From positions 14,388 through 78,387 of the forward strand of contig CAYTTP010000001.1 of assembly GCA_964440955.1 (NCBI GenBank): a stretch of DNA of 64,000 bases, written 5' to 3'. The stretch comes from an uncultured Candidatus Saccharibacteria bacterium (lineage in GTDB: Bacteria > Patescibacteriota > Minisyncoccia > Phycocordibacterales > WO2-35-19). The notes beneath the pieces were generated by a model. The model ran no database searches. It was given only the letters and a program-made list of their open reading frames with translations, and was not told the origin of the DNA. Every line of letters begins with the position of its first letter. The stretch's first letter is position 1. Below, one piece after another: positions 5,986 to 47,392 of the stretch. A program made the position numbers and the translations under genes.

Positions 5986-6100
5986 AATAGCTATTATAGC
6001 CAAAGTAGCCACTTTGTCAAATAGATCGTAAATAAAAGACCACCCGTTTCCGAGCGATCGCGTTCACCTCCTTTCTGGTGATTGGTTGAGTTATGTGTAG

Positions 6101-6330
6101 TGTCGAGACTCCGGCAAGACTACCTTGTGATACAGAAACATCCCGAGGATGGATCCGAACAACAAAGTCATCACACCGCAGGAGAACCCGAACCAGATGA
6201 TTGCGATGTTCACGGCCTCGAATACCGGATCGACGTTGCCCACAACTACACATGCGGCTACGGCGATCGAAAAGAGGATGATGGTTATCCCATATCCGAT
6301 AGGTCAAATGACTCTCAAAAACAATCTCAT
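6101..6330 (-). other. small hydrophobic ORF (about 2 TM helices) with an SD and ATG, interrupted by an in-frame TGA after codon 8
   Basis: AGGAGA-N6-ATG MRLFLRVI, then TGA, then PIGYGITIILFSIAVAACVVVGNVDPVFEAVNIAIIWFGFSCGVMTLLFGSILGMFLYHKVVLPESRHYT. The region is GC-rich. Confidence 0.3.
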
Positions 6331-6454
6331 ATTTTTCTCCTAAAGAACTTGGATTTTACTCCCACCGCAGGAAACTTTTTCAAATTCTCTCTGGTAGAAG
6401 TCCGAGGTGTATTCACTCGGACACCGGTTCGTCACCGGATTTTATACTGGCGGG

Positions 6455-7342
6455 CTACTGGGCCTTCTCCACGCGTTTCCACATGGGGACGTAGTGAACG
6501 TCCGGATCAGCAACGTCGAGTTCGGGGTGGGGCTTCACGGTCCACACACCAGGTTTGCAGTAGATCGAAAGCTCGGTAGAGCCTTTACCTACATTCACCC
6601 GGATAGAACCGCAGCCTTCGCGTGTATACCCCTTCCGTTCCGCTTCTCTCTCGCCGTTGCCTTGAAAGACATTCAGCTTGAAATGTTCGGGACGAGCGAA
6701 GGAGAACTTGAACTCCTGCGACTTGGTCACGATCAATCCGGTTTTGTTTTCCAGATTGAACAATACGACCGAGTTCACTTCAGAGACAAGTGTGTTCGCA
6801 CGAGTTTGGCCGAAAAGCGCGTTGAACGCTTTCACACCATCACCCGCTTTCCACTCGAAGTTGTGGTCGTGAGATTCAATCGCTTGAACCTGCGCGACTA
6901 CCGGATATTCAGCGAGTAGCTTGGATTCGCGCTCGATCTTCTTGTCGATGTCGAGCACGCGCTCACCGGTTTTCCGAAGTAAGTTCCGTAATTTACGGAA
7001 TCCTTCGGCCTCAGCGAACATATTGATGGCGAGATGCGAGAAGCTCGGCATGATGCGTTCGGTGTTGCCGAACCCACCTTCAAGCCACTTGCATTCAATT
7101 TCAGCGGCAGCGAGAGCGTTGATCACATCTTCTCCAAAAACTGGAAAGTGGTGATCGGATTCGTGACAGTCGCCGACAATGATGACCTTGGTTTTTCCAG
7201 TGGCTTTCACCTCCTGGATCAACAGGTTCATGTCTACGACGGCCGGGCAGAAATTGCCGGCGATAACGACGCAATCCTCGGCTACCTTCATGTCCAACTC
7301 GTAGCCATTCTTCGGGTCCTGGGTGAACGTAACTTTCTTCAT
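6455..7342 (-). CDS. hypothetical protein; possibly a metal-dependent hydrolase (GDCHESDHH motif). GC-rich and likely horizontally acquired
   Basis: 295 aa ORF preceded by a GGAGA SD. GC content is well above the surrounding sequence. I cannot place it in a family confidently. Confidence 0.5.
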   Translation of the reverse strand: MKKVTFTQDPKNGYELDMKVAEDCVVIAGNFCPAVVDMNLLIQEVKATGKTKVIIVGDCHESDHHFPVFGEDVINALAAAEIECKWLEGGFGNTERIMPSFSHLAINMFAEAEGFRKLRNLLRKTGERVLDIDKKIERESKLLAEYPVVAQVQAIESHDHNFEWKAGDGVKAFNALFGQTRANTLVSEVNSVVLFNLENKTGLIVTKSQEFKFSFARPEHFKLNVFQGNGEREAERKGYTREGCGSIRVNVGKGSTELSIYCKPGVWTVKPHPELDVADPDVHYVPMWKRVEKAQ

Positions 7343-7435
7343 TGTCTTTCTCCTTCTGGGGTTGCCAGTATGTGATTTTCAAGTAGGGTTGGGGCTACCA
7401 ACCGCTTGTACATAGGGTTTAACCTATCTGGATAT

Positions 7436-12976: not shown

Positions 12977-13045
12977 AATAAAAGCTCACACGAGCTTGGG
13001 CTCCATACTATACAAATATGAATCTGTTGTCAATCTAAAGGAAAA

Positions 13046-13084
13046 CCTCACCCCAGCCCTCCCCCAGATGCAGGAGAGGGAGCC
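13046..13084. repeat. GC-rich palindromic repeat (family copy, opposite orientation): cctcacccc…ccctcccccagatgcaggagaggg agcc
   Basis: Same family as the 10096 copy. It lies upstream of rpsS and marks the break between the L2 and S19 blocks. Confidence 0.55.
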
Positions 13085-13123
13085 AAAAAAAGCACAAAAC
13101 CCGCAGGCTTTGTGAGCTGCGGG

Positions 13124-13234
13124 TTAATGAGTTACCAAGTTTAGAGCATTTTGTAGCCCTGGAATGACGCACTGGAGAAGGTACCCAAGCACCAACACCA
13201 CTGCGCCCCAAAACACAATCTGGCCTTTTTTCAT
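13124..13234 (-). CDS. 36-aa hydrophobic peptide (MKKGQIVFWGAVVLVLGYLLQCVIPGLQNALNLVTH) with a strong SD
   Basis: A GGAGGAAAAGGCT-ATG Shine-Dalgarno site, unusually strong for this genome. It is flanked by hairpin terminators on both sides. Confidence 0.4.
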   Translation of the reverse strand: MKKGQIVFWGAVVLVLGYLLQCVIPGLQNALNLVTH

Positions 13235-13300
13235 AGCCTTTTCCTCCACTATCAATAGTATAACATTGTTTTACATAAATGTCCAGTGCTTGAAGCCCTA

Positions 13301-13327
13301 AACGCGGTGGGATAGCCCCACCGCGTT
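13301..13327 (-). terminator. hairpin terminator (aacgcggtggg-atagc-cccaccgcgtt)
   Basis: An 11-bp perfect stem followed by a T run, downstream of the 122-aa gene. Confidence 0.5.
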
Positions 13328-13345
13328 TTCAAACTCCATAGCGCC

Positions 13346-13714
13346 CTACTCCTTCTTTTTTCTTTCAAAAAGCAACCGAACAACCGGTGGCAATCTATCT
13401 ATCACCGTCTTGATCTTCTCGTCAGTAGGAGGATTACTCATACCTGCGCCTGACGGAGGATGGATATAGGTGCCATCTGAAAGCCGATAGACACAAACGC
13501 TTCTCGGCTCATAATTCTTTCCATCAATTGCACTTGCGATAGCTGCATCTTCTTTACGAAGATAGATCGCATCGTGAACGGAATCCCCCCCACGACCTTC
13601 AATCTCGACCGTCCATGCTTGAACTTCTGCCGTGATGGTACGACCAAGAGGCCATCGTTGATTATGGGGCTCATTGCTCGAAATTCTACCCCAAGAATCT
13701 TCATCATGACCCAT
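13346..13714 (-). CDS. hypothetical protein (GC-rich)
   Basis: 122 aa ORF with no recognisable motifs. Confidence 0.35.
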   Translation of the reverse strand: MGHDEDSWGRISSNEPHNQRWPLGRTITAEVQAWTVEIEGRGGDSVHDAIYLRKEDAAIASAIDGKNYEPRSVCVYRLSDGTYIHPPSGAGMSNPPTDEKIKTVIDRLPPVVRLLFERKKKE

Positions 13715-13776
13715 AGAATTCAGAATCTCCTTTCTGCTCCAGAGAATACGCTCAAAATTTTAAAAATCAAGCAACA

Positions 13777-15543
13777 TTACATTTTTTTCGGAACCTTTAT
13801 ACCCAAAAGTTTCAGACCTGATTCGAGTACCGTAGCAGTAGCATGAGTAAGAGCGATTTTGTATGGAGAAGTAGGATCACCCTCATCGATTATCTTCCCT
13901 TGCGCATAAAAAGCGTTGAAAGTGGAGGCGAGCTCGGTAAGGTAAGTCACCAGATAATGAGGTTCATATTCGTCGGCACATCTCTCCACTACTTCTGGAA
14001 AACGGTACAAATATCTTTCGAGGTTTGTGATTTCCATTTCATCTGGCCTTCGTGCATTGAAACGATTCAAAAAACTCTTTGAGAAAAATGTCTGGCCGAG
14101 CAAAGCAATGAGACCCGAGGACTTTTTTGAAAAGACGTTTTTTGAATCGTTTTTTTCAGCCTTTTCTAAAACACTCTTCGCCCTCACACAAGTGTATTGG
14201 AGATATGGTCCCGAATCGCCCTCAAACGACAGTGAACTATCAAAATCAAAGACAATGTCGCCACCTGTCGACTGCCGAAGTATCGAATACTTGATCGCCC
14301 CAATCGCTACAATATCTGATATTTCGTCTGCCTCCTTTTCATCAAAACCACGATCCTTTATCTTTTCTTTTATGAGTAATTTTAGATGTTCCAAAAGTGC
14401 TCCAAACGTTATCACTTCACCGGTTCGGGACGACATCTTGCCGGTGGGTAATCGGAGCATTCCATGAGAAATATGTTCGGTCTTTGTCGAAAGCTCCGGA
14501 AAGACTTCTCTCATTGCAGCTAACAATACTTTGAAATATTCGTTAATTTCATTGCCGGTAATAATAATTGATCTGTCATACGCATATTTGTCGTATTTTA
14601 TTTTTGATAGCCCAAGTTCTTTTGCTTCATACACAGGCAATCCTTGAGAATTAACGAAAACGCGAGTATGGAGCCTTGGATCATATTTTTCACCCCTAAA
14701 AATGATAGCTCCTTCACTTTCTTCAAACACTCCCTTCTTCAAAAATTCTAATACCACCTCCTTGGCATAATCAGACACTTCGCTTTCGAAAAAATAGAAA
14801 TCAAATTTTGTACCAAGTTTTTCATACCATATTTCAAAATATTCGAGGCTTACCTTCCTTCCCCACTCATAAAGCTTATTGATTTCCGGATCAGATTTGT
14901 CAAAAATCTTTTTATTTATCTCCTGCATTTCAGACCTAAAATATTCGTGCTCTTTTAGAGAAGTGGCGCCATGAGCATAACATTCACCCAAATACTTTGC
15001 CTTTTCAAATATGGAGCCGTTCACTGTTCCGCCCTTCCTTACCATACTCCAAACAGCATAAGCAACATGCATACCAACATCGCCTTGATAGTTGGCCCGC
15101 TTCACTTTTGCATTGGAAGCCTCAAATAGTCGAGCAACAGACTCACCGATAATATTGGGCATCAAGTGGCCAATATGAAATTCTTTGAACGGATTTGGGT
15201 CGGTATACTCGATAATAACTTTTTGATTTAGAAAATTATTATTTTCGCCATATTTTTCTTTCTTCTCCAAAATATCATCTACACTTTCTTCAAAAAACTT
15301 TTTGGAGAGATAGATATTTATAAAACGTGGAGCGACAAATTGGAGCTTCTCGATTTCTGCGATCTGATTTTCCTCCAACTTTTTAAATATTCCTTCCGCG
15401 TTATCACTGTTTACGATCAAAGTGTAGTCGCCGTTTTGCATTTCCTTTGGATGCACCAAAGTAGGCTCCGAAATATCGGCAACTTCCTTCACCCACCCTT
15501 CAATTTTTTGCTTTATTTGCATACATATATTTATACCACGCAA
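13777..15543 (-). CDS. argS: arginine--tRNA ligase
   Basis: 588 aa with a HIGH-type motif (FHIGHLMPNIIG) and a C-terminal anticodon-binding DALR domain. Confidence 0.9.
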   Translation of the reverse strand: MRGINICMQIKQKIEGWVKEVADISEPTLVHPKEMQNGDYTLIVNSDNAEGIFKKLEENQIAEIEKLQFVAPRFINIYLSKKFFEESVDDILEKKEKYGENNNFLNQKVIIEYTDPNPFKEFHIGHLMPNIIGESVARLFEASNAKVKRANYQGDVGMHVAYAVWSMVRKGGTVNGSIFEKAKYLGECYAHGATSLKEHEYFRSEMQEINKKIFDKSDPEINKLYEWGRKVSLEYFEIWYEKLGTKFDFYFFESEVSDYAKEVVLEFLKKGVFEESEGAIIFRGEKYDPRLHTRVFVNSQGLPVYEAKELGLSKIKYDKYAYDRSIIITGNEINEYFKVLLAAMREVFPELSTKTEHISHGMLRLPTGKMSSRTGEVITFGALLEHLKLLIKEKIKDRGFDEKEADEISDIVAIGAIKYSILRQSTGGDIVFDFDSSLSFEGDSGPYLQYTCVRAKSVLEKAEKNDSKNVFSKKSSGLIALLGQTFFSKSFLNRFNARRPDEMEITNLERYLYRFPEVVERCADEYEPHYLVTYLTELASTFNAFYAQGKIIDEGDPTSPYKIALTHATATVLESGLKLLGIKVPKKM

Positions 15544-15576: not shown

Positions 15577-16812
15577 TTAGCGTCGCACTCGTAACACCTT
15601 ATCAATCTTCCTAGCAATCTGCATAAAGTCTTTTTCCTTCTTACCACGAGTAGTTTCGGCTGGAGTACCAAGCCTGATACCAGAAGGGTCAAAAGGGCTA
15701 CGCTCATCAAAAGGTACGGTGTTTTTGTTTACGATTATTCCCGCTTTTTCCAATCGCTCTTCCGCTTCTTTGCCCGGCACCCCCTTCCCACCCATCCATG
15801 TATCAACCAAGACAAGGTGTGAGTCAGTACCGCCCGAAACCACTCGCCAGTTTAGATTTTGTAATTCAAGAGCTAAAGCTTTCGCGTTTTTGACTACTTG
15901 CTTTGCATAAGCTTTAAATTTTGAACTATTTGCTTCCGCCAAAGCTACAGCGATCGAGGCTATCTGCCCCATGTGAGGCCCACCTTGCAACCCTGGGAAA
16001 ACTGCTTTATCTATTTTTTTGCCCAATTCGCGATTATCGATTTTTGAAAAAATCATTGCCCCTCTCGGACCGCGCAATGTTTTGTGAGTCGTCGTCGTCA
16101 CTACGTCAGCGTATAAAAACGGTGATGGGTAAACCCCGCCCGCGACAAGTCCAGCAAAATGCGACATATCAACCACCAGATATGTCTGTCGATCATCACC
16201 TTTGGTTCTTTTTTTATTTACCTCATCAACTATTTCTCTGCACTTTTTAAAATCGACAATGCGCGGATAAGCGGTAAAGCCAACAACAACAATGTCGGGC
16301 TTTTCTCTGAGTGCCTCCTCCCGCATTTTTTTGTAATCAACCAATTCGGTTTTTGGGTCAAGCGCTATCGGCACTTGTTGCCAAAACTTGCCAGTAGCCG
16401 AAACTTTGTGCCCGTGAGTAAGGTGGCCACCCGAGGAGAGAGGTAAACCCATGATCACAGGGCGAGTCATGAATTTTGAGTCATGAATTAAGGGAGGACA
16501 CAGAGCCATATACACAGCCAAGTTTGCTGGAGAGCCAGAGAGTGGTTGGACATTGACCTGCCAATCTTTTTCTTTCAATCCAAAAAGTTTGAGTGCTCGT
16601 TTTTGGCAAAGCTCTTCAACCTTGTCAGTGTTTTCCTGCCCGCCATAATACCGTGCCCTTGGATACCCTTCGGCATATTTGTTGTCAAAAATAGAACCAA
16701 GAGCCTCAAGCACATCATTCGAGACATAGTTTTCGGAAGCGATAAGATTGATCACCCTTTTTTGCCTCCCCTTCTCCGCTTCAATAAGTTTTTTTATTTG
16801 AGGGTCTTTCAT
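15577..16812 (-). CDS. glyA: serine hydroxymethyltransferase
   Basis: 411 aa, …LIASENYVS… with a PLP-lysine region (TTTHKTLRGPRG). Confidence 0.9.
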   Translation of the reverse strand: MKDPQIKKLIEAEKGRQKRVINLIASENYVSNDVLEALGSIFDNKYAEGYPRARYYGGQENTDKVEELCQKRALKLFGLKEKDWQVNVQPLSGSPANLAVYMALCPPLIHDSKFMTRPVIMGLPLSSGGHLTHGHKVSATGKFWQQVPIALDPKTELVDYKKMREEALREKPDIVVVGFTAYPRIVDFKKCREIVDEVNKKRTKGDDRQTYLVVDMSHFAGLVAGGVYPSPFLYADVVTTTTHKTLRGPRGAMIFSKIDNRELGKKIDKAVFPGLQGGPHMGQIASIAVALAEANSSKFKAYAKQVVKNAKALALELQNLNWRVVSGGTDSHLVLVDTWMGGKGVPGKEAEERLEKAGIIVNKNTVPFDERSPFDPSGIRLGTPAETTRGKKEKDFMQIARKIDKVLRVRR

Positions 16813-17775
16813 TTATTTTCTATCTTTTTCGTTAAATCCACCAGCTACCGTCATCTCTCCTTTTAAGGCTGGGTGTGGATCATACCCTTCAAGGGTGACC
16901 ATTTCTGGCCTAAAATTTTCTAGATCTTTAATTTCATCACTTAACACAAGTCTCGGTAGTGGTCGAGGTTCTCTAGTGAGCTGTTCTTTCACTTGCTCTA
17001 AATGATTGTGATAAATATGCACATCTCCAAGTGTATGTATAAACTCTCCCGGCTCATACCCAGCAATTTTGGCAATAATCATAGTCAATGCAGCATAACT
17101 TGCAATGTTAAATGGAACACCAAGAAATGTGTCGCAACTCCTTTGATACAAAAGGCAAGATAATTTATTGCCCGAAACATTAAAATGAAAAAGAATATGG
17201 CAGAGAGGAAAACTGAGCGCTTCCCCAGGAAGAGCCATTCCGTATAAAAACTGTGGATTCCAAGCTGACAAAACTGCATGCTTCCTTTCAGGAAAGTTTT
17301 TAAGAGTATCTACAACCCAAGCGAGTTGATCAATTTTTCTCCCATCTGCTGCAGGCCAGGCTCTCCACTGCTCTCCATAAATACGTGGGAGTTCTCCGTG
17401 CTCCTTTGCAAATTTTTCATCCTGCCTTATTTTTTCAACAAACTCCTCTTTGGTTAAGTTTGGCAATTGTCCTTTATCTGCTTTTGCTTTATATATTTTA
17501 TAAGGATAGTCATTCCAAATTGGTACCTTATGATCAACAAGATATTTTATATTCGTCTGACCAGACATAAACCAATAGAGCTCCTGAATGATACTATTCC
17601 AAGGAACTTTTTTTGTAGTCAAAAGAGGAAAACCTTTTGATAAATCGAAGCGTATTTGTCTTCCAAAAATACTAGTTAGACCATTACCCGTATTGTGATC
17701 TTTTTTTTCAACTCCATTATCCAATATATCTTGTAATAATTCGAGATACTGATACTCAGGGTGATCTTTTTTCAT
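16813..17775 (-). CDS. thyA: thymidylate synthase ThyA
   Basis: Catalytic region …LPPCHILFHFNV… and the DTFLGVPFNIASYA motif. The internal start MKKDHPEYQY is more plausible than the long track ORF. Confidence 0.85.
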   Translation of the reverse strand: MKKDHPEYQYLELLQDILDNGVEKKDHNTGNGLTSIFGRQIRFDLSKGFPLLTTKKVPWNSIIQELYWFMSGQTNIKYLVDHKVPIWNDYPYKIYKAKADKGQLPNLTKEEFVEKIRQDEKFAKEHGELPRIYGEQWRAWPAADGRKIDQLAWVVDTLKNFPERKHAVLSAWNPQFLYGMALPGEALSFPLCHILFHFNVSGNKLSCLLYQRSCDTFLGVPFNIASYAALTMIIAKIAGYEPGEFIHTLGDVHIYHNHLEQVKEQLTREPRPLPRLVLSDEIKDLENFRPEMVTLEGYDPHPALKGEMTVAGGFNEKDRK

Positions 17776-17779
17776 GGTA

Positions 17780-18346
17780 TTATTTTTTATTTTTAATAGA
17801 ATCCTCTTTTTTGGGAGTAAAATGATTTGAATTTTTCTTACCATAACGACCCGTCTTTTCGTACCCATTCCTTGTTTGGGAAGTAAGTCTTGCAAATAAT
17901 AATTGAGCAATTTCCATACCAGGTCTTAATATAAGAGGGACATTATTGGTATTTACCAATTCAAATGTAGGATAAAAATAATGCCCAGGATTAAATAACA
18001 TGGCCGTATTGTGTACAACAAGCCCAGCCCTAGCTAAACTGCTCTTACCCGACAATAAAATAAGATGTTCGTGATCTACGCCTATAAATTCCTTCTGTTT
18101 ACCCAAAACACTTTCCCCTGGGTGTAACACAAACTCTTCCCCATCTTTTACTTTTATAGTTCTTGTTTGTGGATATATCTTATTATATGGATCGATAACC
18201 TTTGTCTTGTGTCTATCAGTAACTTCAAATTCATTACCAAGCAATACATCATAACTTGCTGGTTGTAATTGTTTTTCAACAAATGGCTTAATTACAATTT
18301 TTCCCTTCTTAAGAGCCTCTCTTATGTCTACATCAGATAAAAACAT
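17780..18346 (-). CDS. dcd: dCTP deaminase
   Basis: 188 aa with the dCTP deaminase/dUTPase fold (…GLVVHNTA…). Confidence 0.8.
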   Translation of the reverse strand: MFLSDVDIREALKKGKIVIKPFVEKQLQPASYDVLLGNEFEVTDRHKTKVIDPYNKIYPQTRTIKVKDGEEFVLHPGESVLGKQKEFIGVDHEHLILLSGKSSLARAGLVVHNTAMLFNPGHYFYPTFELVNTNNVPLILRPGMEIAQLLFARLTSQTRNGYEKTGRYGKKNSNHFTPKKEDSIKNKK

Positions 18347-18347
18347 T

Positions 18348-19016
18348 TTATTCTATATTAAATACTTTATCCGTCCCATAATAATCTTTCCAATTTTCAT
18401 TATAATACTTAAACATTCTTTCCAACCTATCCTGAGGAAGTTCTGTAACTCCAAATTCAGCCATCAGGGCAAGTAAATCTGCTTTTATAGATTCTGTTTG
18501 TGTCTCGTCATTACTAATTTTTTCAAATTCTGCAAGGTAACCATATCCGGCATTTTTATCTAAACATATATTTATATCACCAACTTTATATTCTTCACGC
18601 TCACGAGACCATTTTGCTTGATAAGTTAAACCTGATTCAAGTAACAAATTATCAAGTCTGTCTAAAGTCATATCTATTTTTGATTCAAACTCCATTCTTG
18701 AGACACCATTTGCGCTTGAATCACTTCCTACAGATGCCTTAACCACTAAAAATACTTCTCCGTCTGCGTCTCTAGTGCGCACAGAAAAGTTTTTACCTTC
18801 CGTTAAAATTTTATTAAATAAATCTCTATCTTCTGATTTTATATGTGATTCAAGTTTATTTTTAAAAAGATTTGTATCTGAAATAATAAAATAATGATTT
18901 AACTGTTTATTTTGTTTTAAAAGCATTCCCCCCCGAGAATGTATTTTCTGTTTTAATGCATTTGCATTTTCTAAGCTTCCAAGCAGACTTTTTATTTCAA
19001 TTTCATAAGTAGACAT
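18348..19016 (-). CDS. CYTH-domain protein (triphosphate tunnel metalloenzyme-like), uncertain
   Basis: 222 aa. The N-terminal EIEIKSLL resembles the CYTH ExExK motif. It is the first gene of the minus-strand dNTP and folate operon. Confidence 0.4.
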   Translation of the reverse strand: MSTYEIEIKSLLGSLENANALKQKIHSRGGMLLKQNKQLNHYFIISDTNLFKNKLESHIKSEDRDLFNKILTEGKNFSVRTRDADGEVFLVVKASVGSDSSANGVSRMEFESKIDMTLDRLDNLLLESGLTYQAKWSREREEYKVGDINICLDKNAGYGYLAEFEKISNDETQTESIKADLLALMAEFGVTELPQDRLERMFKYYNENWKDYYGTDKVFNIE

Positions 19017-19062
19017 TCGTAGGTGATTAAATTATTGTGTAAGTATATCAACGTAAGTATGT

Positions 19063-19566
19063 ATGGCAAATATTGCAAAAAACAAAAAAATCAGCCTAAT
19101 TGTCGTCTTAAGCAAGAAAAATAGAGCTATTGGTATAAAAAATAAGCTTTTATGGAAGATAAATGGCGATTTGCCTCGTTTCAAAAAACTAACTACAGGT
19201 CACCCTATTATAATGGGACGCAAAACATATGAATCGATAGGGCGACCACTTCCAGATAGAACAAATATAATAATCACACGAAACCCTTCCCTAAAAATTG
19301 ATAATTGCCTTATTGCAAATTCTATAGAAGAAGCTGTTAGAATAGCCGAGTGTGCAGAAGGTAGCGATGAAATTTTCATTATAGGTGGTGGAGAGATATT
19401 CAAAGAGTCAATAACTTTAGCTGACCGACTCTATCTCACTGTCGTAAATGATGAGCCAGTGGCTGATACTTTTTTCCCCGAATACTCAAATTTTAGAAAA
19501 GAAATATTTCACGAAGACTGCCACGAACACAACCCGTCTTTTTCATACATAACTTTAGAAAAGTAA
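19063..19566 (+). CDS. folA: dihydrofolate reductase
   Basis: 167 aa, …IGIKNKLLWKINGDLPRFKKLTTGHPIIMGRKTYESIG…. Confidence 0.85.
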   Translation: MANIAKNKKISLIVVLSKKNRAIGIKNKLLWKINGDLPRFKKLTTGHPIIMGRKTYESIGRPLPDRTNIIITRNPSLKIDNCLIANSIEEAVRIAECAEGSDEIFIIGGGEIFKESITLADRLYLTVVNDEPVADTFFPEYSNFRKEIFHEDCHEHNPSFSYITLEK

Positions 19567-19620
19567 TATTTTGCGCAAAACTTGACCATGTGCTAGAAAT
19601 AACTTCGGAAGGAGTTTTCT

Positions 19621-20037
19621 ATGGACAAAACCCTTGTCCTCATTAAACCAGATGCTGTAGAAAAGAGGGTCTGGATCGAGATCATCGACATGTACCGGCA
19701 CAGCGCTGGTCTCGTGGTTTTAAATTCTCGGATAATGAGTCCGCTTCCGAGAGAACTTGCGGAAAGGCTCTATGCCGAACATGAAGGCAAGCCTTTCTAT
19801 CCAGAGCTCATCGGGCACATGACTCAAGGTACCACCATTGCCCTGCTCTTATCAGGGGCGGGCGCAGTCGAAATAGTTCGTAAATACAACGGTGCCACCA
19901 AGCCAGAAAATGCAGAAAGTGGCACAATCCGACGATTCTTTGGTACTCCTGGGAAGGGGCCGGCAAACGCGGTCCATGGATCAGCAAGTGCCGAAGATGC
20001 AGTGCGTGAGATCGCTATTTTCTTCGGAGAAGAGTAG
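19621..20037 (+). CDS. ndk: nucleoside diphosphate kinase (canonical 138-aa form; second ndk in the window)
   Basis: LIKPDAV, YAEHEGKPFYPELIGHMTQG and NAVHGSAS…REIAIFFGE line up closely with E. coli Ndk. GC content is higher than in flanking genes. Confidence 0.85.
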   Translation: MDKTLVLIKPDAVEKRVWIEIIDMYRHSAGLVVLNSRIMSPLPRELAERLYAEHEGKPFYPELIGHMTQGTTIALLLSGAGAVEIVRKYNGATKPENAESGTIRRFFGTPGKGPANAVHGSASAEDAVREIAIFFGEE

Positions 20038-20098
20038 GTCTCTGGGGTGGTTGCGCAATCTGCACAACCACCCTAAACTTTTTATATTAATTTTAAAT

Positions 20099-21118
20099 AT
20101 GACACATAAACGCCCTAAAAATGTTTTAGGTCAAATCCTCAAAAAAATTGCTCCGAAAATAAAGGCCAAAGTATTGCTTGAACCTTATTGGAATGTAGTT
20201 GGTCAGATCATTTTTAAAAATGGCAAAAAGAGCTATTTCCGATACAACACATTAGACCTCAACCCAATGGGAAGTTCGGAAATTGCGAGAGACAAAGATT
20301 ATTCAAATTTTTTCATCAAAAAATTAAAGTATCCGATAGTACCGAAAAGTAAAACTTTTTATTCCGACAATTGGGCACGGGCAATCGGAGAAAACAATAG
20401 AGACATCCATCATGGATGGCAATATGCATCCCAGATAGGGCTTCCGGTTATTGTAAAGCCAAACAGCGGTAGCCAAGGGTCACATGTCGCTTTAGTCCAC
20501 AACAAAAAGGAATTCTATTCGGCACTTAAGGCCATATTCAGAGGAGACAGAATAGCTCTGATCCAAAAACCTGTCTATGGTAAAGATTATAGGATCGTAG
20601 TTTTGGATAATGAAATTATTTCGGCCTATGAGCGAATACCTCTATCGGTACAAGGTGACGGTATATCAACAATACAAAAACTTCTTAAAATAAAACAAGA
20701 TGAATTTATAAAATCAGGCAGAGATACTCGAATAAAAACGAAAGACCCTCGAATACTAATTAAATTAAAACACCAAAAACTAAAGCTCGATTCTATTCCT
20801 AAAAAAGGAGAAGTTATTTTTCTTTTAGACAATGCGAACCTATCGACCGGAGGTGATTCAAACGACGTGACCAAGAAAATTCATCCAAAATTCAAAGATA
20901 TTGCAGTCAATCTCACTAGAGATATGGGGCTTCGATTGTGCGGTGTGGATCTTATTATTGAAGGTGATATAACACAAAAACCAAACAAATATTGGGTATT
21001 AGAAATTAATTCCGCTCCCGGTCTCGATCATTATGTGAAAATCGGCAAAATACAGGAAAAAATTGTTGAAAATTTATACTTAAAAGTCCTAAAACATCTC
21101 CAAAATGAACATCGATAA
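20099..21118 (+). CDS. RimK-like ATP-grasp ligase
   Basis: VIVKPNSGSQGSHVALV, YRIVVLDNEII and WVLEINSAPGL are ATP-grasp (RimK/GshB-like) motifs. The ATG at 20099 removes the overlap of the longer track ORF with ndk. Confidence 0.65.
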   Translation: MTHKRPKNVLGQILKKIAPKIKAKVLLEPYWNVVGQIIFKNGKKSYFRYNTLDLNPMGSSEIARDKDYSNFFIKKLKYPIVPKSKTFYSDNWARAIGENNRDIHHGWQYASQIGLPVIVKPNSGSQGSHVALVHNKKEFYSALKAIFRGDRIALIQKPVYGKDYRIVVLDNEIISAYERIPLSVQGDGISTIQKLLKIKQDEFIKSGRDTRIKTKDPRILIKLKHQKLKLDSIPKKGEVIFLLDNANLSTGGDSNDVTKKIHPKFKDIAVNLTRDMGLRLCGVDLIIEGDITQKPNKYWVLEINSAPGLDHYVKIGKIQEKIVENLYLKVLKHLQNEHR

Positions 21119-21539
21119 CTTAAGAAGTTTAACCAAAAAGTACGATTCATGTATACTCTACAAACCACTTAAGGATGAGATTGACTACACCCTCTCCCAC
21201 TTTCCTCTCCTACTACCTCAAGAAAAAATAATATTACCTTCTGATAAAAATAGTGACCCTTTTGAATTGGTAGATATTTGCATGGAACGTTGTCAAAGTT
21301 TAAAACCATTTATTTTAATACCTGGAAGGAAATTTGATATTTATGGTGCACGGATAGGACACGGCTATGGGTGGTATGATCGATTTCTTTCTAAACTTCC
21401 TCAAACATGGCTTCGAATTGGAGTAGGATACTATTCACAATTATCAATCGAAAAAATCGAAACAAAAATACATGATCAAAAAATGGACATTATTCTTATT
21501 CTAAAAGATCAGGATTGGAAAATTTATAAAGCCAAATAA
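21105..21539 (+). CDS. 5-formyltetrahydrofolate cyclo-ligase (MTHFS) family protein
   Basis: 144 aa with the IGHGYGWYDRFL motif (G-x-G-x-GYYD). Confidence 0.65.
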   Translation: MNIDNLRSLTKKYDSCILYKPLKDEIDYTLSHFPLLLPQEKIILPSDKNSDPFELVDICMERCQSLKPFILIPGRKFDIYGARIGHGYGWYDRFLSKLPQTWLRIGVGYYSQLSIEKIETKIHDQKMDIILILKDQDWKIYKAK

Positions 21540-21540
21540 A

Positions 21541-21572
21541 AACAAAACTCCGTTAAACGGAGTTTTGTTTTT
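21541..21572. terminator. bidirectional terminator between the MTHFS gene (+) and rplK (-)
   Basis: aacaaaactccg ttaa cggagttttgtt followed by T runs. Confidence 0.6.
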
Positions 21573-23965: not shown

Positions 23966-24775
23966 CTAACACAGATCGAGTAAGTTTTGGAATAAGCTCG
24001 CGACCGTAAGCGGCCCGACCCCACCCGGCACCGGCGAAAGTGCGTCAACAATCGGCTCGACTTCGTCAAATATAACGTCACCAACCACCTTACCTGTGTC
24101 TAAGCGCCTAATACCAACATCAATCACTATTTGACCCTTGCTTACGAAGCGAGCATCTATAAGGTGAGGTACGCCGGTTGCCGACACGACAATATGAGCC
24201 CCCTTACACTTCTCCCTTAGCTCATCGGGCGGAGTTTCCTTGTCACACACAAGCACAATAGCTCCTCCTCGAGAAAATTCCTTGGCAATAGGGCTGCCAG
24301 CTACTCTAGAATTGCCGACTACTGTCACTCTTTTGCCAGTGTAATCTATTTCATAAAATTTTAAAATTTCAAAAACACCGCGAGCAGTAGCCGGTATAAC
24401 ACGAGAAGACCCGGATAGCCCATCTGCATCCTTCTTCTCAGGAATAAGCGAAACTAGTTTTTCTGTGTCAATTTTCTCTGGCAGAGGCAGTTGCACGATA
24501 ACACCATTTATATTTTCATCAGCAATTATTTTTAACAGCTCATGTTCTAATTCCTCATGCAAAACATCCTCACCAAACTTTGAGATAGACACTCCCACCC
24601 CTATTTCTTCGCCAAATTCCTTTTTGCGTTTCAAATAAATAGCGGTGTCCGGTGAGTCGCCAACGGTCAATATAGAAAGAGTAGGCTTGTGTGTCTTTTC
24701 CCTTATCCTTGCTTTGAGTTCAGCTCTTATTTTTTCTGCAACCGGCTTACCAAAAAGTATTTTTGCCATTTCCAC
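23966..24775 (-). CDS. folD: bifunctional methylenetetrahydrofolate dehydrogenase/cyclohydrolase
   Basis: 269 aa, …VVGNSRVAGSPIA… and …PVPGGVGPLTVA…. Confidence 0.85.
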   Translation of the reverse strand: MEMAKILFGKPVAEKIRAELKARIREKTHKPTLSILTVGDSPDTAIYLKRKKEFGEEIGVGVSISKFGEDVLHEELEHELLKIIADENINGVIVQLPLPEKIDTEKLVSLIPEKKDADGLSGSSRVIPATARGVFEILKFYEIDYTGKRVTVVGNSRVAGSPIAKEFSRGGAIVLVCDKETPPDELREKCKGAHIVVSATGVPHLIDARFVSKGQIVIDVGIRRLDTGKVVGDVIFDEVEPIVDALSPVPGGVGPLTVASLFQNLLDLC

Positions 24776-46771: not shown

Positions 46772-47392
46772 CTACTCCAAGAGGCCATCCATATTTACAT
46801 CATACAAAATTTGTTCTTGGATAAGTTTGTAGTTTATAAGTTCATCGTCATTAAACCAATGCTTTATTTCCATCTCTGCCTCCTTCACCGAACCAGAACC
46901 ATGAACCAAGTTTCTAACCGAGCGACCATCTTGATCAGCTAGTTCATAAGAATCAAGAACAAAATCACCCCTTATTGAACCAACATCAGACGAACGAGGC
47001 TCGGTGCCTCCAGTTATTTTGCGAGCAAGCTCAACTGCATGCAAACCCTGCCAGACCATGAGGATAACTGGACCGCTTGTCATATATTTTTTTAGTTTCT
47101 CCAAGACGATTGCGGTTATCTCATACGGATCCTCTGAAGGCGGTTTATTACCACGTTCACGTGCCATTTTTATACGCTTTTCTCCGGTCACTCTCCGCCA
47201 TTCTGGGTCAAGAGTGTAAAATTGCTCGATTTGCTCTTCAGTTGGCAAAGCCATTTTAGTAGCAACGAGTTTTAAACCCCTTCTTTCAAAACGACCTATT
47301 ATCTCACCGATTAGTGATCGTTGAATACCGTCAGGTTTTATTATTATCAAAGTTCTCTCTGTTTTTGGATGCATAAAATTTTCAATCTTCAA
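46772..47392 (-). CDS. ndk: nucleoside diphosphate kinase (long 206-aa form with insertions)
   Basis: TLIIIKPDGIQR… and NLVHGSGSVKEAEMEIKHWF match Ndk. It is the last gene of the r-protein/secY/adk/map operon. Confidence 0.75.
   Translation of the reverse strand: MKIENFMHPKTERTLIIIKPDGIQRSLIGEIIGRFERRGLKLVATKMALPTEEQIEQFYTLDPEWRRVTGEKRIKMARERGNKPPSEDPYEITAIVLEKLKKYMTSGPVILMVWQGLHAVELARKITGGTEPRSSDVGSIRGDFVLDSYELADQDGRSVRNLVHGSGSVKEAEMEIKHWFNDDELINYKLIQEQILYDVNMDGLLE

What the first reader, a model, noticed from the sequence alone, without database searches (positions are those of the whole stretch)
15577..21539. Folate and thymidylate gene cluster containing a RimK-like ATP-grasp ligase and a second, canonical NDK
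glyA-thyA-dcd-CYTH on the minus strand diverges from folA-ndk-ATPgrasp-MTHFS on the plus strand, and folD lies 2.4 kb away. The 339-aa ATP-grasp protein has RimK-type motifs (KPNSGSQGSHV, WVLEINSAPGL). RimK-family enzymes (RimK, MptN, CofF) add glutamates. In this neighbourhood it is a plausible non-orthologous folate or pterin poly-gamma-glutamyl ligase replacing FolC, or a nucleotide-ligating enzyme. The embedded 138-aa NDK is near-canonical and more GC-rich than its neighbours. A divergent 206-aa NDK also sits at the end of the secY-adk-map operon. The cluster is arranged so that dCTP to dUMP to dTMP to dTTP runs from one locus.
Basis: inference. Interest (0 to 1): 0.6.

Follow-up and report, generated by a model that had tools for sequence, protein, structure and literature searches.

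The report
Folate-linked ATP-grasp ligase in Patescibacteria
A real folate/thymidylate gene cluster from a tiny symbiotic (CPR) bacterium contains a very strongly conserved, uncharacterised ATP-grasp ligase that sits beside folate genes in about 60% of related genomes, often right next to a folate polyglutamate ligase, so it probably acts alongside FolC rather than replacing it.

Summary
glyA-thyA-dcd-CYTH (minus strand) diverges from folA-ndk-ATP-grasp-MTHFS-like (plus strand). folD lies 2.4 kb away, and a second 206-aa NDK follows secY-adk-map.

The 339-aa ATP-grasp is not a RimK, MptN or CofF family member. By sequence and predicted fold its nearest relatives are the cyanophycin synthetase G domain and the C-terminal ATP-grasp domain of GshF.

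It belongs to an orthogroup that is 60-75% identical across Parcubacteria-type Patescibacteria. In 80 related genomic loci:
- 49-50 have folate or dTMP genes within three genes of it, in at least nine different arrangements.
- 11 have a bona fide FolC next to it.
- 21 have a CofE-like FolC2 next to it. FolC and FolC2 never occur together.
- 16 have the truncated MTHFS-like gene next to it.

So the folate link is strongly supported, but "replaces FolC" is not supported at family level.

My best reading is inferred, not shown. The enzyme ligates an amino acid, probably glutamate, to an alpha-carboxylate of the folate glutamate tail. This would parallel CofE/CofF on F420 and the M/G domains of cyanophycin synthetase.

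The ndk is a GC-rich cassette with its own terminator hairpin. Its origin is unresolved.

The parts
15577..16812 (-). glyA, serine hydroxymethyltransferase (411 aa)
   Evidence: Pfam SHMT 1.9e-148. NCBIfam NF000586 scores 487.6 bits, above its cut-off of 335.
16813..17775 (-). thyA, thymidylate synthase (320 aa from the ATG at 17775)
   Evidence: Pfam 4.9e-101. TIGR03284 scores 374 bits, above its cut-off of 108. 86-89% identical to orthologues in L008 and L032.
17780..18346 (-). dcd, dCTP deaminase family (188 aa)
   Evidence: Pfam DCD 1.3e-38. TIGR02274 scores 148 bits, above its cut-off of 92.8. Whether it is mono- or bifunctional was not determined.
18348..19016 (-). CYTH-domain protein (222 aa), function unknown
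   Evidence: Pfam CYTH 1.1e-12. The class IV adenylate cyclase model scores below its cut-off. The gene is conserved between dcd and folA in 6-7 related loci.
19063..19566 (+). folA, dihydrofolate reductase (167 aa)
   Evidence: Pfam DHFR_1 3.9e-50.
19621..20037 (+). ndk, short canonical nucleoside diphosphate kinase (138 aa), a GC-rich cassette
   Evidence: Pfam NDK 1.2e-36. The catalytic-His motif NAVHGS aligns to solved NDKs. GC 0.511 and GC3 0.504, against 0.30-0.37 for the flanking genes. Nearest relatives are 50-64% identical.
20043..20075 (+). Strong hairpin followed by a T-rich tract, probably the ndk terminator
   Evidence: RNA fold of 20036-20092: -23.3 kcal/mol, z = -5.66, and 0 of 200 shuffles fold as well. 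The sequence is shown.
20099..21118 (+). Stand-alone ATP-grasp ligase (339 aa) of the CphA-G / GshF-C clade. Member of a Patescibacteria orthogroup linked to folate genes.
   Evidence: NCBIfam: cyanophycin synthetase G region 1.7e-47 and GshAB C-terminal region 2.9e-44, against rimK_fam 3.5e-17. PDB sequence search: 3ln7 at 7e-31. AF2 model pLDDT 96.2. Foldseek: 3ln6 and 7wae near 1.5e-23, RimK 2.9e-13. 500 species loci found. Neighbourhood statistics.
21105..21539 (+). N-terminally truncated 5-formyl-THF cyclo-ligase (MTHFS) family protein (144 aa). Its start overlaps the ATP-grasp stop by 14 nt.
   Evidence: Pfam 5-FTHF_cyc-lig 2.8e-12, matching profile positions 120-184 only. TIGR02727 scores 55.5 bits, below its cut-off of 84.9. 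The family profile aligns to solved MTHFS only from chain residue about 39-69 onward, and the GxGxGWYDR motif is kept. It lies immediately downstream of the ATP-grasp in 14 of 80 loci and adjacent to it in 15.
21538..21572 (.). 16-bp hairpin between the convergent MTHFS-like and rplK genes, terminator-like
   Evidence: Terminator-like hit. The total number of such hits in the region does not exceed the number found in shuffled sequence.
23966..24775 (-). folD, methylene-THF dehydrogenase/cyclohydrolase (269 aa)
   Evidence: Pfam THF_DHG_CYH_C 1.9e-46 and THF_DHG_CYH 3e-26.
46772..47392 (-). Second, longer NDK (206 aa from a TTG start) with an insertion of about 35 aa, downstream of secY-adk-map
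   Evidence: tblastn against ndk1: 25% identity, 4e-13. Pfam NDK 132 bits in two stretches. Context.

Best explanation
The region is the folate/thymidylate unit of a folate-auxotrophic Patescibacteria (Parcubacteria-type) genome.

What each part does:
- ThyA, DHFR and SHMT run the dTMP cycle.
- Dcd feeds the cycle with deoxyuridine nucleotide.
- FolD and an MTHFS-like protein interconvert or recycle one-carbon folates.

The 339-aa ATP-grasp protein is an intact ATP-dependent carboxylate-amine ligase. It belongs to the clade that contains the cyanophycin synthetase G domain, the C-terminal domain of GshF and N-acetylglutaminylglutamine synthetase. All of these extend a substrate at a C-terminal alpha-carboxylate through an acyl-phosphate intermediate.

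Its orthologues are tied to folate genes, and above all to the two alternative folate gamma-glutamyl ligases, FolC and the CofE-like FolC2.

Most likely mechanism (inferred, not shown):
1. It uses ATP to activate an alpha-carboxylate on the glutamate tail of salvaged folate.
2. It adds an amino acid there, probably L-glutamate.
3. This caps or extends the tail that FolC or FolC2 builds through gamma linkages.
4. The result helps to retain or stabilise the scavenged cofactor.

On this reading it is a partner of FolC/FolC2, not a general substitute for them.

The ndk between folA and the ATP-grasp is a separately acquired or separately expressed cassette. It is not part of the conserved unit.
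For: Shown:
- Gene identities are established.
- The ATP-grasp catalytic apparatus is conserved. K120, D284, E302 and N304 are invariant or nearly so across 130 homologues, and they align to the GshF residues.
- The model is confident (pLDDT 96.2). Its best structural matches are GshF and CphA1/CphA2 at about 1e-23, against RimK, ArgX and Ddl at about 1e-12 to 1e-13.
- Purifying selection is extreme. The protein is 60-75% identical across many candidate phyla, comparable to NusG and higher than glyA, folA or argS in the same loci.
- Neighbourhood in 80 species loci: 49-50 have a folate or dTMP gene within three genes. FolC2-type occurs in 21, the MTHFS-like gene in 16, FolC in 11, folD in 9-10, folA in 8-11, and a RibD_C/DHFR-like gene in 8.
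- There are at least nine distinct architectures. Examples are folD-/grasp+, FolC-/grasp+/MTHFS+, grasp+/FolC2-, glyA+ folD+ grasp+, and purL-/grasp+/folA-.
- Whenever FolC or FolC2 is present in a locus, it lies within three genes of the ATP-grasp. The two never co-occur.
- Family assignments of the neighbours: TIGR01499 folC scores 291 bits, above its cut-off. TIGR04132, 'putative folate metabolism gamma-glutamate ligase', hits at 8e-65.

From the literature:
- COG1478 FolC2 functionally replaces FolC in Chlamydia (PMC1971073).
- CofF adds a terminal alpha-glutamate after CofE on F420 (PMC8498797).
- MptN, MyfA and MyfB are ATP-grasp glutamate ligases acting on C1-carrier coenzymes (PMC8141765).
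Against: - No biochemical data exist, and the substrate cannot be read from the sequence.
- About 30 of the 80 loci show no folate gene nearby.
- More distant full-length homologues (37-52% identity; a Patescibacteria-like contig, Nostocales, Acidobacteria) have no folate context. They nevertheless share almost all conserved residues: only 14 positions are specific to the orthogroup. The pocket is therefore not obviously folate-specific.
- The known coenzyme-tail ATP-grasp ligases (CofF, MptN, MyfB) belong to the RimK family proper. This protein does not.
- Whole-genome co-occurrence with FolC or FolC2 could not be computed.
- The 80 loci are not phylogenetically independent.
Confidence: 0.45

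Rival explanations
1. The ATP-grasp is a non-orthologous folylpolyglutamate synthetase that replaces FolC in these genomes.
For: - No FolC or FolC2 homologue is present in the 64-kb window (tblastn with 32 family members).
- None is present in about 10 kb beyond either end of the window.
- Loci with the same architecture as the window (L008, L055, L062, L065) also lack one within 10 kb.
- The folate context is strong.
Against: - In 32 of 80 orthologue loci, a FolC (11) or FolC2-type ligase (21) sits within three genes of the ATP-grasp. The two activities therefore coexist.
- In L032, the locus most similar in layout to the window, a FolC2 gene lies between ndk and the ATP-grasp.
- The homologous enzymes act on alpha-carboxylates, not gamma-carboxylates (family knowledge).
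- Only about 84 kb of this genome was inspected.
Confidence: 0.12
2. The ATP-grasp works with the N-terminally truncated MTHFS-like protein as a two-part ATP-dependent enzyme. The target would be the one-carbon or pterin end of folate, for example 5-formyl-THF recycling or formate activation, rather than the glutamate tail.
For: - The MTHFS-like gene is the most frequent neighbour directly flanking the ATP-grasp (15 of 80 loci). In the window the two genes overlap by 14 nt.
- The MTHFS-like family lacks the N-terminal 35-50 residues of solved MTHFS enzymes. From my own knowledge of human MTHFS, that segment contributes phosphate-binding Lys and Arg residues.
- ATP-grasp enzymes such as PurT activate formate (family knowledge).
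Against: - 64 of 80 loci have the ATP-grasp without an adjacent MTHFS-like gene.
- The closest homologues are peptide-bond ligases, not PurT or PurK types.
- The exclusive, tight pairing with FolC or FolC2 points to the tail.
Confidence: 0.1
3. The ATP-grasp makes a small peptide or amide unrelated to folate, such as a glutathione-like thiol, an NAGGN-like osmolyte or another dipeptide. Its position near folate genes would then reflect co-regulation or inherited synteny only.
For: - The closest characterised relatives make glutathione, cyanophycin and N-acetylglutaminylglutamine.
- About 30 of 80 loci, and all five distant homologues whose surroundings could be examined, lack folate context.
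- Few residues are specific to the orthogroup.
Against: - The association recurs in many rearranged architectures and with different folate genes. That is hard to explain by inherited synteny.
- Folate and dTMP genes make up about 9.6% of ORFs in these loci. My own rough estimate for such a genome is about 1-2%.
- No gshA-like or other partner gene recurs nearby.
Confidence: 0.2
4. The ATP-grasp modifies the C-terminus of a protein, in the manner of RimK on S6 or LysX on LysW. A ribosomal protein encoded nearby could be the target.
For: - Pfam RimK-like domain hit, 58.6 bits, above the gathering cut-off.
- rplK and nusG lie next to the cluster in the window and in 6 loci.
Against: - The rplK/nusG proximity is limited to loci that share the window's extended synteny.
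- Scores against RimK and LysX models are far below their cut-offs.
- RimK and ArgX are structural matches ten orders of magnitude weaker than GshF and CphA.
Confidence: 0.05

Closest known systems
Cyanophycin synthetase CphA1/CphA2, G (ATP-grasp) domain (PDB 7wae, 7lg5, 7ta5, 8fxi)
   Same: - Best or joint-best match by sequence and by fold: TIGR02068 region 236-470 at 1.7e-47, Foldseek 1.6e-23.
- It shares the inserted subdomain carrying the ...DNANLSTGGD... motif.
- It shares the Lys, Asp, Glu and Asn catalytic residues.
- The G domain extends a chain at a backbone alpha-carboxylate, while the Mur-ligase-like M domain acts on a side-chain carboxylate. A FolC + ATP-grasp gene pair would divide the work in the same way.
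   Different: - Only 23-25% identical.
- It is a stand-alone 339-aa protein with no N or M domain, and scores 162 bits against a cut-off of 850.
- The neighbouring Mur-type ligase is a true FolC (291 bits to TIGR01499 but only about 35 bits to the CphA model), and it is a separate, divergently transcribed gene.
- Public annotations of this family as 'cyanophycin synthetase' are therefore misleading.
Bifunctional glutathione synthetase GshF/GshAB, C-terminal ATP-grasp domain (PDB 3ln6, 3ln7)
   Same: - Top PDB hits: phmmer 7e-31, Foldseek 1.5e-23, 26-27% identity.
- Same subdomain insertion.
- It ligates an amino acid (Gly) to a C-terminal alpha-carboxylate.
   Different: - There is no GshA domain, fused or nearby.
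- It scores 151.6 bits against a cut-off of 425.
- The genomic context is folate, not thiol metabolism.
CofE + CofF on coenzyme F420. Also MptN (tetrahydrosarcinapterin synthase) and MyfA/MyfB (methylofuran).
   Same: - Same functional logic: a gamma-glutamyl ligase (CofE family, to which FolC2 belongs) is paired with an ATP-grasp ligase that adds an alpha-linked glutamate to a coenzyme tail (PMC8498797, PMC8141765).
- In 21 loci the ATP-grasp here lies beside a CofE-family gene whose best match is the 'folate metabolism gamma-glutamate ligase' model.
   Different: - CofF, MptN and MyfB are RimK-family proteins. This protein scores far below their cut-offs: CofF 36.7 against 300, MptN 49.9 against 350.
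- The proposed cofactor is folate, not F420, H4MPT or methylofuran.
- No ATP-grasp is known for folate tails. That statement rests on my own knowledge and on literature searches that found none.
FolC, and FolC2 (COG1478, Chlamydia CT611)
   Same: - Same pathway neighbourhood.
- The proposed product class, folate with an extended amino-acid tail, overlaps.
   Different: - The folds are unrelated: FolC is a Mur ligase and FolC2 is CofE-like.
- They are found next to the ATP-grasp rather than being replaced by it.
RimK (ribosomal protein S6 poly-alpha-glutamate ligase)
   Same: - Same superfamily.
- The Pfam PF08443 domain hit is above its gathering score.
- Same alpha-carboxylate ligation chemistry.
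   Different: - TIGR00768 scores 62.7 against a cut-off of 143.4, and NF007764 scores 33.3 against 331.
- Foldseek 2.9e-13, against about 1e-23 for GshF and CphA.
- RimK lacks the inserted subdomain. This is inferred from the sequence alignments, not from a structural comparison.

Membership tests
ATP-grasp superfamily | Three-domain ATP-grasp fold with the conserved ATP-binding Lys and the Mg-binding Asp, Glu and Asn | tested here: met
   - AF2 model pLDDT 96.2.
- Foldseek probability 1.0 to many ATP-grasp structures.
- K120 and D284 are invariant, and E302 and N304 are at least 90% conserved, in 130 homologues.
- These residues align to GshF residues.
RimK family alpha-L-glutamate ligases (TIGR00768; RimK NF007764) | Score at or above the curated family cut-off | tested here: not met
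   - TIGR00768: 62.7 bits against 143.4.
- NF007764: 33.3 bits against 331.
- Only the generic Pfam domain PF08443 passes, at 58.6 against 21.
MptN / CofF coenzyme alpha-L-glutamate ligases | Score at or above the equivalog cut-off | tested here: not met
   - MptN NF040720: 49.9 bits against 350.
- CofF TIGR04443: 36.7 bits against 300.
Cyanophycin synthetase (CphA1) | Full N + G + M architecture (about 870 aa) and a score at or above the cut-off | tested here: not met
   - Only model positions 236-470 of 862 are matched.
- The score is 162 bits against 850.
- The protein is 339 aa and has no Mur-ligase domain.
CphA-G / GshF-C / NAGGN-synthetase clade of ATP-grasp domains | Best reciprocal similarity to these domains, including the inserted subdomain with the ANxSTGG motif | tested here: met
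   - E-values of 1.7e-47, 2.9e-44 and 5.2e-25, against 3.5e-17 or weaker for every other family.
- The alignment to 3ln7 runs through ...LLDNANLSTGGDS....
- These domains are the top Foldseek hits.
Bifunctional GshF | An N-terminal glutamate-cysteine ligase domain | tested here: not met
   - Only positions 521-750 of 756 are matched, at 151.6 bits against 425.
- No gshA-like gene family recurs among the neighbours.
FolC (Mur-ligase-type DHFS/FPGS) | Mur ligase M and C domains | tested here: not met
   The ATP-grasp protein has no Mur_ligase hit. By contrast the neighbouring gene family f5 does: TIGR01499 at 291 bits against 162.65.
D-Ala-D-Ala ligase | Score at or above the cut-off | tested here: not met
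   - NF002378: 39.1 bits against 243.
- TIGR01205: 34.5 bits against 245.65.
Folate-tail amino-acid ligase (proposed function) | ATP-dependent ligation of an amino acid to a folate (poly)glutamate | not testable with these tools
   Only gene-neighbourhood evidence and homology to alpha-carboxylate ligases are available.
5-formyltetrahydrofolate cyclo-ligase (MTHFS), for the 144-aa protein | Full-length match above the equivalog cut-off, including the N-terminal helix | tested here: inconclusive
   - The Pfam family score passes (47.4 against 27), but only profile positions 120-184 are matched.
- TIGR02727 scores 55.5 bits against 84.9.
- The family profile aligns to PDB MTHFS enzymes only from residue about 39-69 onward.
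- The GxGxGWYDR motif is conserved.
Nucleoside diphosphate kinase, for the 138-aa protein | NDK domain with the catalytic His | tested here: met
   - Pfam 126 bits against 27.
- It aligns end to end with 3vvt, including ...NAVHGS....
- The NCBIfam equivalog NF001908 scores 129.9 against 155, just below its cut-off.

The most novel reading that the evidence does not exclude
Patescibacteria decorate salvaged folate with a non-canonical tail. FolC, or its analogue FolC2, adds gamma-linked glutamates. This ATP-grasp adds alpha-linked residues to cap, extend or branch the tail.

That would make it the first identified folate alpha-amino-acid ligase. It would also be an unfused counterpart of the M and G domains of cyanophycin synthetase.

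It would give a gene family to an activity reported biochemically for E. coli (alpha-linked glutamates in folylpolyglutamates). To my knowledge that activity has never been assigned to a gene. This last point rests on recollection, not on a tool result.
Probability: 0.27. Interest if true: 0.8.

Novelty: new variant of a known kind. Interest (0 to 1): 0.55.

Why it matters
Patescibacteria are a large fraction of bacterial diversity. They cannot make folate, yet almost all keep folate-using enzymes (PMC11974145). How they capture and keep the cofactor is unknown.

This protein is one of the most conserved in these genomes and has no assigned function. Public records label it "cyanophycin synthetase" or "D-Ala-D-Ala ligase-like". 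It is tightly linked to the two alternative folate glutamyl ligases.

If it modifies the folate tail, three things follow:
- It would define a new step in folate salvage.
- It would explain a family-wide misannotation.
- It would extend to folate the pairing of a gamma-ligase with an ATP-grasp alpha-ligase, which is known for F420 and methanopterin.

The hypothesis can be tested directly with a recombinant enzyme and commercially available folates.

Tried and rejected
1. RimK, MptN or CofF membership. Rejected on curated cut-offs and on fold ranking.
2. A real cyanophycin synthetase, or a split one. Rejected. The protein has the G-like domain only, and the adjacent Mur-type ligase is a true FolC by score.
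3. Domain fusions as functional clues. The long relatives are tandem ATP-grasp domains plus acylphosphatase, which is uninformative.
4. First structure prediction from 21 close sequences. It gave pLDDT 55. It was replaced by a 130-sequence alignment that gave pLDDT 96.
6. A THF or other riboswitch near the cluster. Rfam found only tRNAs in the window and in seven loci.
7. The promoter and terminator scan found no more sites than in shuffled sequence.
8. Distant homologues as a guide to function. Six look-ups were made (37-54% identity; a Patescibacteria-like contig, Nostocales, Acidobacteria, unknown). None showed folate context. One of them (P0125) lay on a 1.4-kb contig with no neighbouring genes, so it was uninformative.
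9. Orthogroup-specific residues as specificity determinants. Only 14 were found, with no obvious pattern.
10. Donor of the GC-rich ndk. The nearest relatives are 50-64% identical and unnamed. Beyond those it is 47-49% identical to NDKs of many phyla. The donor is unresolved.
11. Search for FolC or FolC2 in this genome. None was found in the window or in about 10 kb beyond each end.
12. Literature. No paper was found linking an ATP-grasp to folate in CPR bacteria.

Full report

Yes. The ORF list, together with Pfam and NCBIfam, confirms a tightly packed minus-strand operon:
- CYTH 18348-19016
- dcd 17780-18346
- thyA 16813-17775
- glyA 15577-16812
- argS follows at 13777-15543

It diverges from a plus-strand set:
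- folA 19063-19566
- ndk 19621-20037
- ATP-grasp 20099-21118
- MTHFS-like 21105-21539

folD (23966-24775) lies 2.4 kb further on, beyond rplK, nusG and a SIMPL-family gene.

The 339-aa reading of the ATP-grasp, from the ATG at 20099, is the right one. Homologues align from that residue, and an identical 339-aa gene call exists in public data (P0001).

The ndk has GC 0.511 and GC3 0.504. Its neighbours have GC 0.30-0.37 and the window has 0.416.

A second NDK lies at 46772-47392 on the minus strand. It is 206 aa, carries an insertion of about 35 residues, and closes the secY-adk-map operon.

The organism is a Patescibacteria (CPR) bacterium of the Parcubacteria type. The best-matching loci come from Parcubacteria, Paceibacterota and related candidate phyla.

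**2. What the ATP-grasp is**

The generic Pfam RimK-like domain does pass its threshold (58.6 bits). The curated family models do not pass:

| Model | Score (bits) | Cut-off (bits) |
|---|---|---|
| rimK_fam | 62.7 | 143.4 |
| RimK | 33.3 | 331 |
| MptN | 49.9 | 350 |
| CofF | 36.7 | 300 |
| Ddl | 39 | 243 |

The strongest matches by a wide margin are:
- the G (ATP-grasp) region of cyanophycin synthetase, 1.7e-47, model positions 236-470
- the C-terminal ATP-grasp domain of bifunctional glutathione synthetase GshAB, 2.9e-44
- N-acetylglutaminylglutamine synthetase, 5e-25

PDB sequence search agrees: 3ln7 at 7e-31 and CphA1 at about 1e-25, against RimK and Ddl at about 1e-5.

A first AlphaFold model from 21 close sequences was poor (pLDDT 55). 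With 130 diverse homologues the model reached pLDDT 96.2. Foldseek then ranked GshF, CphA1 and CphA2 at about 1e-23, and RimK, ArgX and Ddl at 1e-12 to 1e-13.

The ATP-binding Lys and the Mg-binding Asp, Glu and Asn (K120, D284, E302, N304) are conserved. The protein therefore looks like an active ligase. It is a stand-alone domain of the CphA-G/GshF-C clade. It is not a cyanophycin synthetase, although many public records carry that name.

**3. How conserved and how widespread it is**

The word-indexed search found 3,324 homologues. The best 120 are 65-75% identical and come from many candidate phyla.

The exhaustive search of 50%-identity representatives found 323 clusters below 1e-30. Full-length relatives of about 330 aa extend down to about 30% identity.

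A scan of one genome per species found 500 species with a relative, and the best 80 loci were kept. Within those loci the ATP-grasp is 60-73% identical to the window protein. For comparison, in the same loci:

| Gene | Identity to window protein |
|---|---|
| argS | 40-47% |
| glyA | 46-65% |
| folA | 35-61% |
| nusG | 71-82% |

This is the conservation level of a core informational protein.

**4. Gene neighbourhood, the key evidence**

I called ORFs in the 80 loci and clustered them. I then re-detected the families with HMMs built from the clusters and checked the weak hits.
- Family f5 (about 427 aa) is a bona fide FolC. TIGR01499 scores 291 bits against a cut-off of 162.65.
- Family f1 (about 236 aa) is a CofE/F420-ligase family protein. 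Its best model is TIGR04132, "putative folate metabolism gamma-glutamate ligase" (8e-65). This is the FolC2 type that replaces FolC in Chlamydia (PMC1971073).

Counts among the 80 loci:

| Neighbour | Loci |
|---|---|
| FolC2-type | 21 |
| MTHFS-like | 16 (15 adjacent to the ATP-grasp, 14 of them immediately downstream) |
| FolC | 11 (all divergently adjacent) |
| folD | 9-10 |
| folA | 8-11 |
| thyA / glyA / dcd | 11-13 |
| RibD_C/DHFR-like reductase | 8 (always beside FolC or FolC2) |

In all, 49-50 loci have at least one such gene within three genes of the ATP-grasp.

FolC and FolC2 never occur in the same locus. Whenever either is present in the roughly 21 kb, it lies within three genes of the ATP-grasp.

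The arrangements are varied. They include:
- folD-/grasp+
- FolC-/grasp+/MTHFS+
- grasp+/FolC2-
- RibDC+ FolC2+ grasp+
- glyA+ folD+ grasp+ FolC2-
- the window's own glyA-thyA-dcd-CYTH/folA-grasp layout
- purC-purM-purE-purQ-purL/grasp/folA-dcd-thyA

A rough tree of the ATP-grasp sequences interleaves the FolC-linked and FolC2-linked members. Inherited synteny alone does not explain this.

Folate and dTMP genes make up 125 of 1,303 ORFs in these loci. That is several-fold above what a 700-800-gene genome with about ten such genes would give; the background figure is my own estimate.

Six more distant homologues were looked up. One (P0125, 54% identity) sits on a 1.4-kb contig with no neighbouring genes and tells nothing. 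The other five show no folate context:
- 52% identity, Patescibacteria-like contig
- 45% identity, taxon unknown
- 37% identity, taxon unknown; its neighbours are large sensor kinases, unlike a Patescibacteria genome
- a Cylindrospermum (Nostocales) member
- an Acidobacteria member

. The link is therefore a property of the highly conserved Patescibacteria orthogroup.

**5.

The folate connection is strongly supported. The specific idea that the ATP-grasp replaces FolC is not supported for the family. In 32 of 80 genomes, a FolC or its known analogue is encoded within three genes of it.

For this particular genome I found no FolC or FolC2 in the window, nor in about 10 kb beyond either end. 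Only about 84 kb was visible. In L032, the locus closest to the window in layout, a FolC2 gene sits between ndk and the ATP-grasp. Replacement in this lineage cannot be excluded, but it is not the economical reading.

**6. Most likely mechanism**

Shown:
- An intact ATP-grasp ligase.
- Membership of a clade whose characterised members all activate a C-terminal alpha-carboxylate as an acyl-phosphate and add an amino acid: Asp in CphA, Gly in GshF, Gln in NAGGN synthetase. This rests on established knowledge of those families.
- Tight and exclusive genomic pairing with the two alternative folate gamma-glutamyl ligases.

Inferred:
- The substrate carboxylate is the alpha-carboxylate of the glutamate tail of salvaged folate.
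- The added residue is probably glutamate.
- The product is an alpha-capped or alpha-extended tail.

There is precedent. CofE builds the gamma-glutamyl tail of F420, and the ATP-grasp CofF caps it with an alpha-glutamate (PMC8498797). MptN, MyfA and MyfB are ATP-grasp glutamate ligases acting on methanopterin and methylofuran (PMC8141765).

The pairing also mirrors cyanophycin synthetase. There, a Mur-ligase-like domain acts on the side-chain carboxylate and the ATP-grasp domain acts on the backbone carboxylate.

My probabilities:

| Claim | Probability |
|---|---|
| A folate-related role | about 0.8 |
| A tail ligase working alongside FolC/FolC2 | about 0.45 |
| Alpha-glutamate specifically | about 0.3 |

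**7. The MTHFS-like protein**

It keeps the C-terminal GxGxGWYDR signature and the conserved acidic residues. The family profile aligns to solved MTHFS enzymes only from residue about 39-69 onward, and the equivalog score is below its cut-off.

The N-terminal helix is therefore missing. In human MTHFS, as far as I recall, that helix supplies phosphate-binding Lys and Arg residues.

Because its start overlaps the ATP-grasp stop by 14 nt, and because it is the commonest downstream neighbour, a two-component enzyme is a real alternative. I rate that at about 0.1. Most ATP-grasp loci lack the MTHFS-like gene nearby.

**8. The NDKs**

ndk1 is a canonical short NDK with the catalytic His. It has the following features:
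- a Shine-Dalgarno-like GGAAGGAG upstream
- a strong hairpin directly downstream (-23.3 kcal/mol, z = -5.7)
- sharp GC boundaries

Only one of the 80 loci (L032) has an ndk at this position. That copy is also GC-rich (0.52 against a locus value of 0.41), yet it is only 38% identical to ndk1.

The nearest database relatives of ndk1 are 50-64% identical and unnamed. Beyond them it is 47-49% identical to NDKs from Chloroflexota, Gammaproteobacteria, Clostridia and Minisyncoccia.

It behaves like an inserted cassette and is not part of the conserved unit. No donor can be named.

No dTMP kinase or dUTPase is among the cluster genes, and I did not determine whether Dcd is bifunctional.

**9. Novelty and verdict**

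The folate/thymidylate cluster is ordinary. CPR genomes are known to keep folA, glyA and folD (PMC11974145).

The ATP-grasp family and its link to FolC/FolC2 do not appear in the literature I could search. An ATP-grasp acting on folate tails would be a new variant of a known kind of enzyme, the coenzyme-tail amino-acid ligases.

The evidence is comparative only. The decisive tests are a whole-genome phyletic profile and a simple in vitro ligase assay.

Interest 0.55.

Noticed in passing
L004-L080 (e.g. L005:8561-9835, L071:11005-11715): FolC (11 loci) and the CofE-like FolC2-type ligase (21 loci) are mutually exclusive neighbours of the ATP-grasp. They are interleaved on a rough ATP-grasp tree. 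This suggests repeated non-orthologous displacement of the folate gamma-glutamyl ligase within Patescibacteria.
   Followed up: partly
L005:8018-8551, L012:8620-9144, L069:11741-12283 and five other loci: A 180-aa RibD_C/DHFR-like reductase (Pfam RibD_C 5e-18, DHFR_1 5e-12) is always immediately beside FolC or FolC2 (8 of 8 loci). It is possibly an alternative DHFR in genomes where canonical folA is not nearby.
   Followed up: partly
window 18348-19016 (-): A CYTH (triphosphate tunnel) protein is conserved between dcd and folA in 6-7 loci. It scores below the adenylate cyclase cut-off. Its fixed position next to dCTP deaminase hints at a (deoxy)nucleoside triphosphate-related role. No dUTPase is present in the cluster.
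   Followed up: no
window 19573-20090; L032:8595-8990: The ndk cassette has GC 0.51 inside a cluster of GC 0.30-0.37, with its own ribosome-binding site and a terminator hairpin. The 8-nt palindrome TTGCGCAA occurs on both sides of it (about 19574 and 20054). L032 carries an ndk at the same position that is also GC-rich but only 38% identical.
   Followed up: partly
L069:11044-11769, also L036 and L080: A 241-aa multi-pass membrane protein with no Pfam or NCBIfam hit lies between the ATP-grasp and the RibD_C-like/FolC2 pair in three loci. It is a candidate folate transporter.
   Followed up: no
L051, L057, L064, L066 (upstream of the ATP-grasp): A purine operon (purC, purM, purE, a HAD hydrolase, purQ, purL) abuts the ATP-grasp, with folA-dcd-thyA on the other side in L051, L057 and L066 (L064 is a short contig on which only a weak folA match was seen there). 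Some Parcubacteria-type genomes therefore retain part of de novo purine synthesis next to the folate unit.
   Followed up: partly
window 6001-7400: A local GC peak (0.50, against 0.35 in the preceding kilobase) coincides with a 295-aa ORF (6455-7342, minus strand) of unknown function. It lies between type IV pilus genes and a pilM/actin-like gene.
   Followed up: no
window 12980-13780: A stretch of about 0.8 kb between rpsS and argS contains only short overlapping ORFs with no Pfam hit (e.g. 13346-13714). The ribosomal protein operon is interrupted here by the argS-glyA-thyA-dcd-CYTH operon.
   Followed up: no
P0399-P0482 (Nostocales), L091:6001-7023: Stand-alone homologues of about 330 aa in Nostoc, Anabaena and Cylindrospermum are auto-annotated as "cyanophycin synthetase", "glutathione synthase" or "D-Ala-D-Ala ligase". 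They contain only the G-like domain and sit in unrelated contexts. This is probably a family-wide misannotation.
   Followed up: partly
L044, L059, L069 record titles: Some loci carrying the Patescibacteria-type ATP-grasp are titled Gammaproteobacteria or Vicinamibacterales MAGs. Mis-binned Patescibacteria contigs are more likely than real transfers.
   Followed up: no
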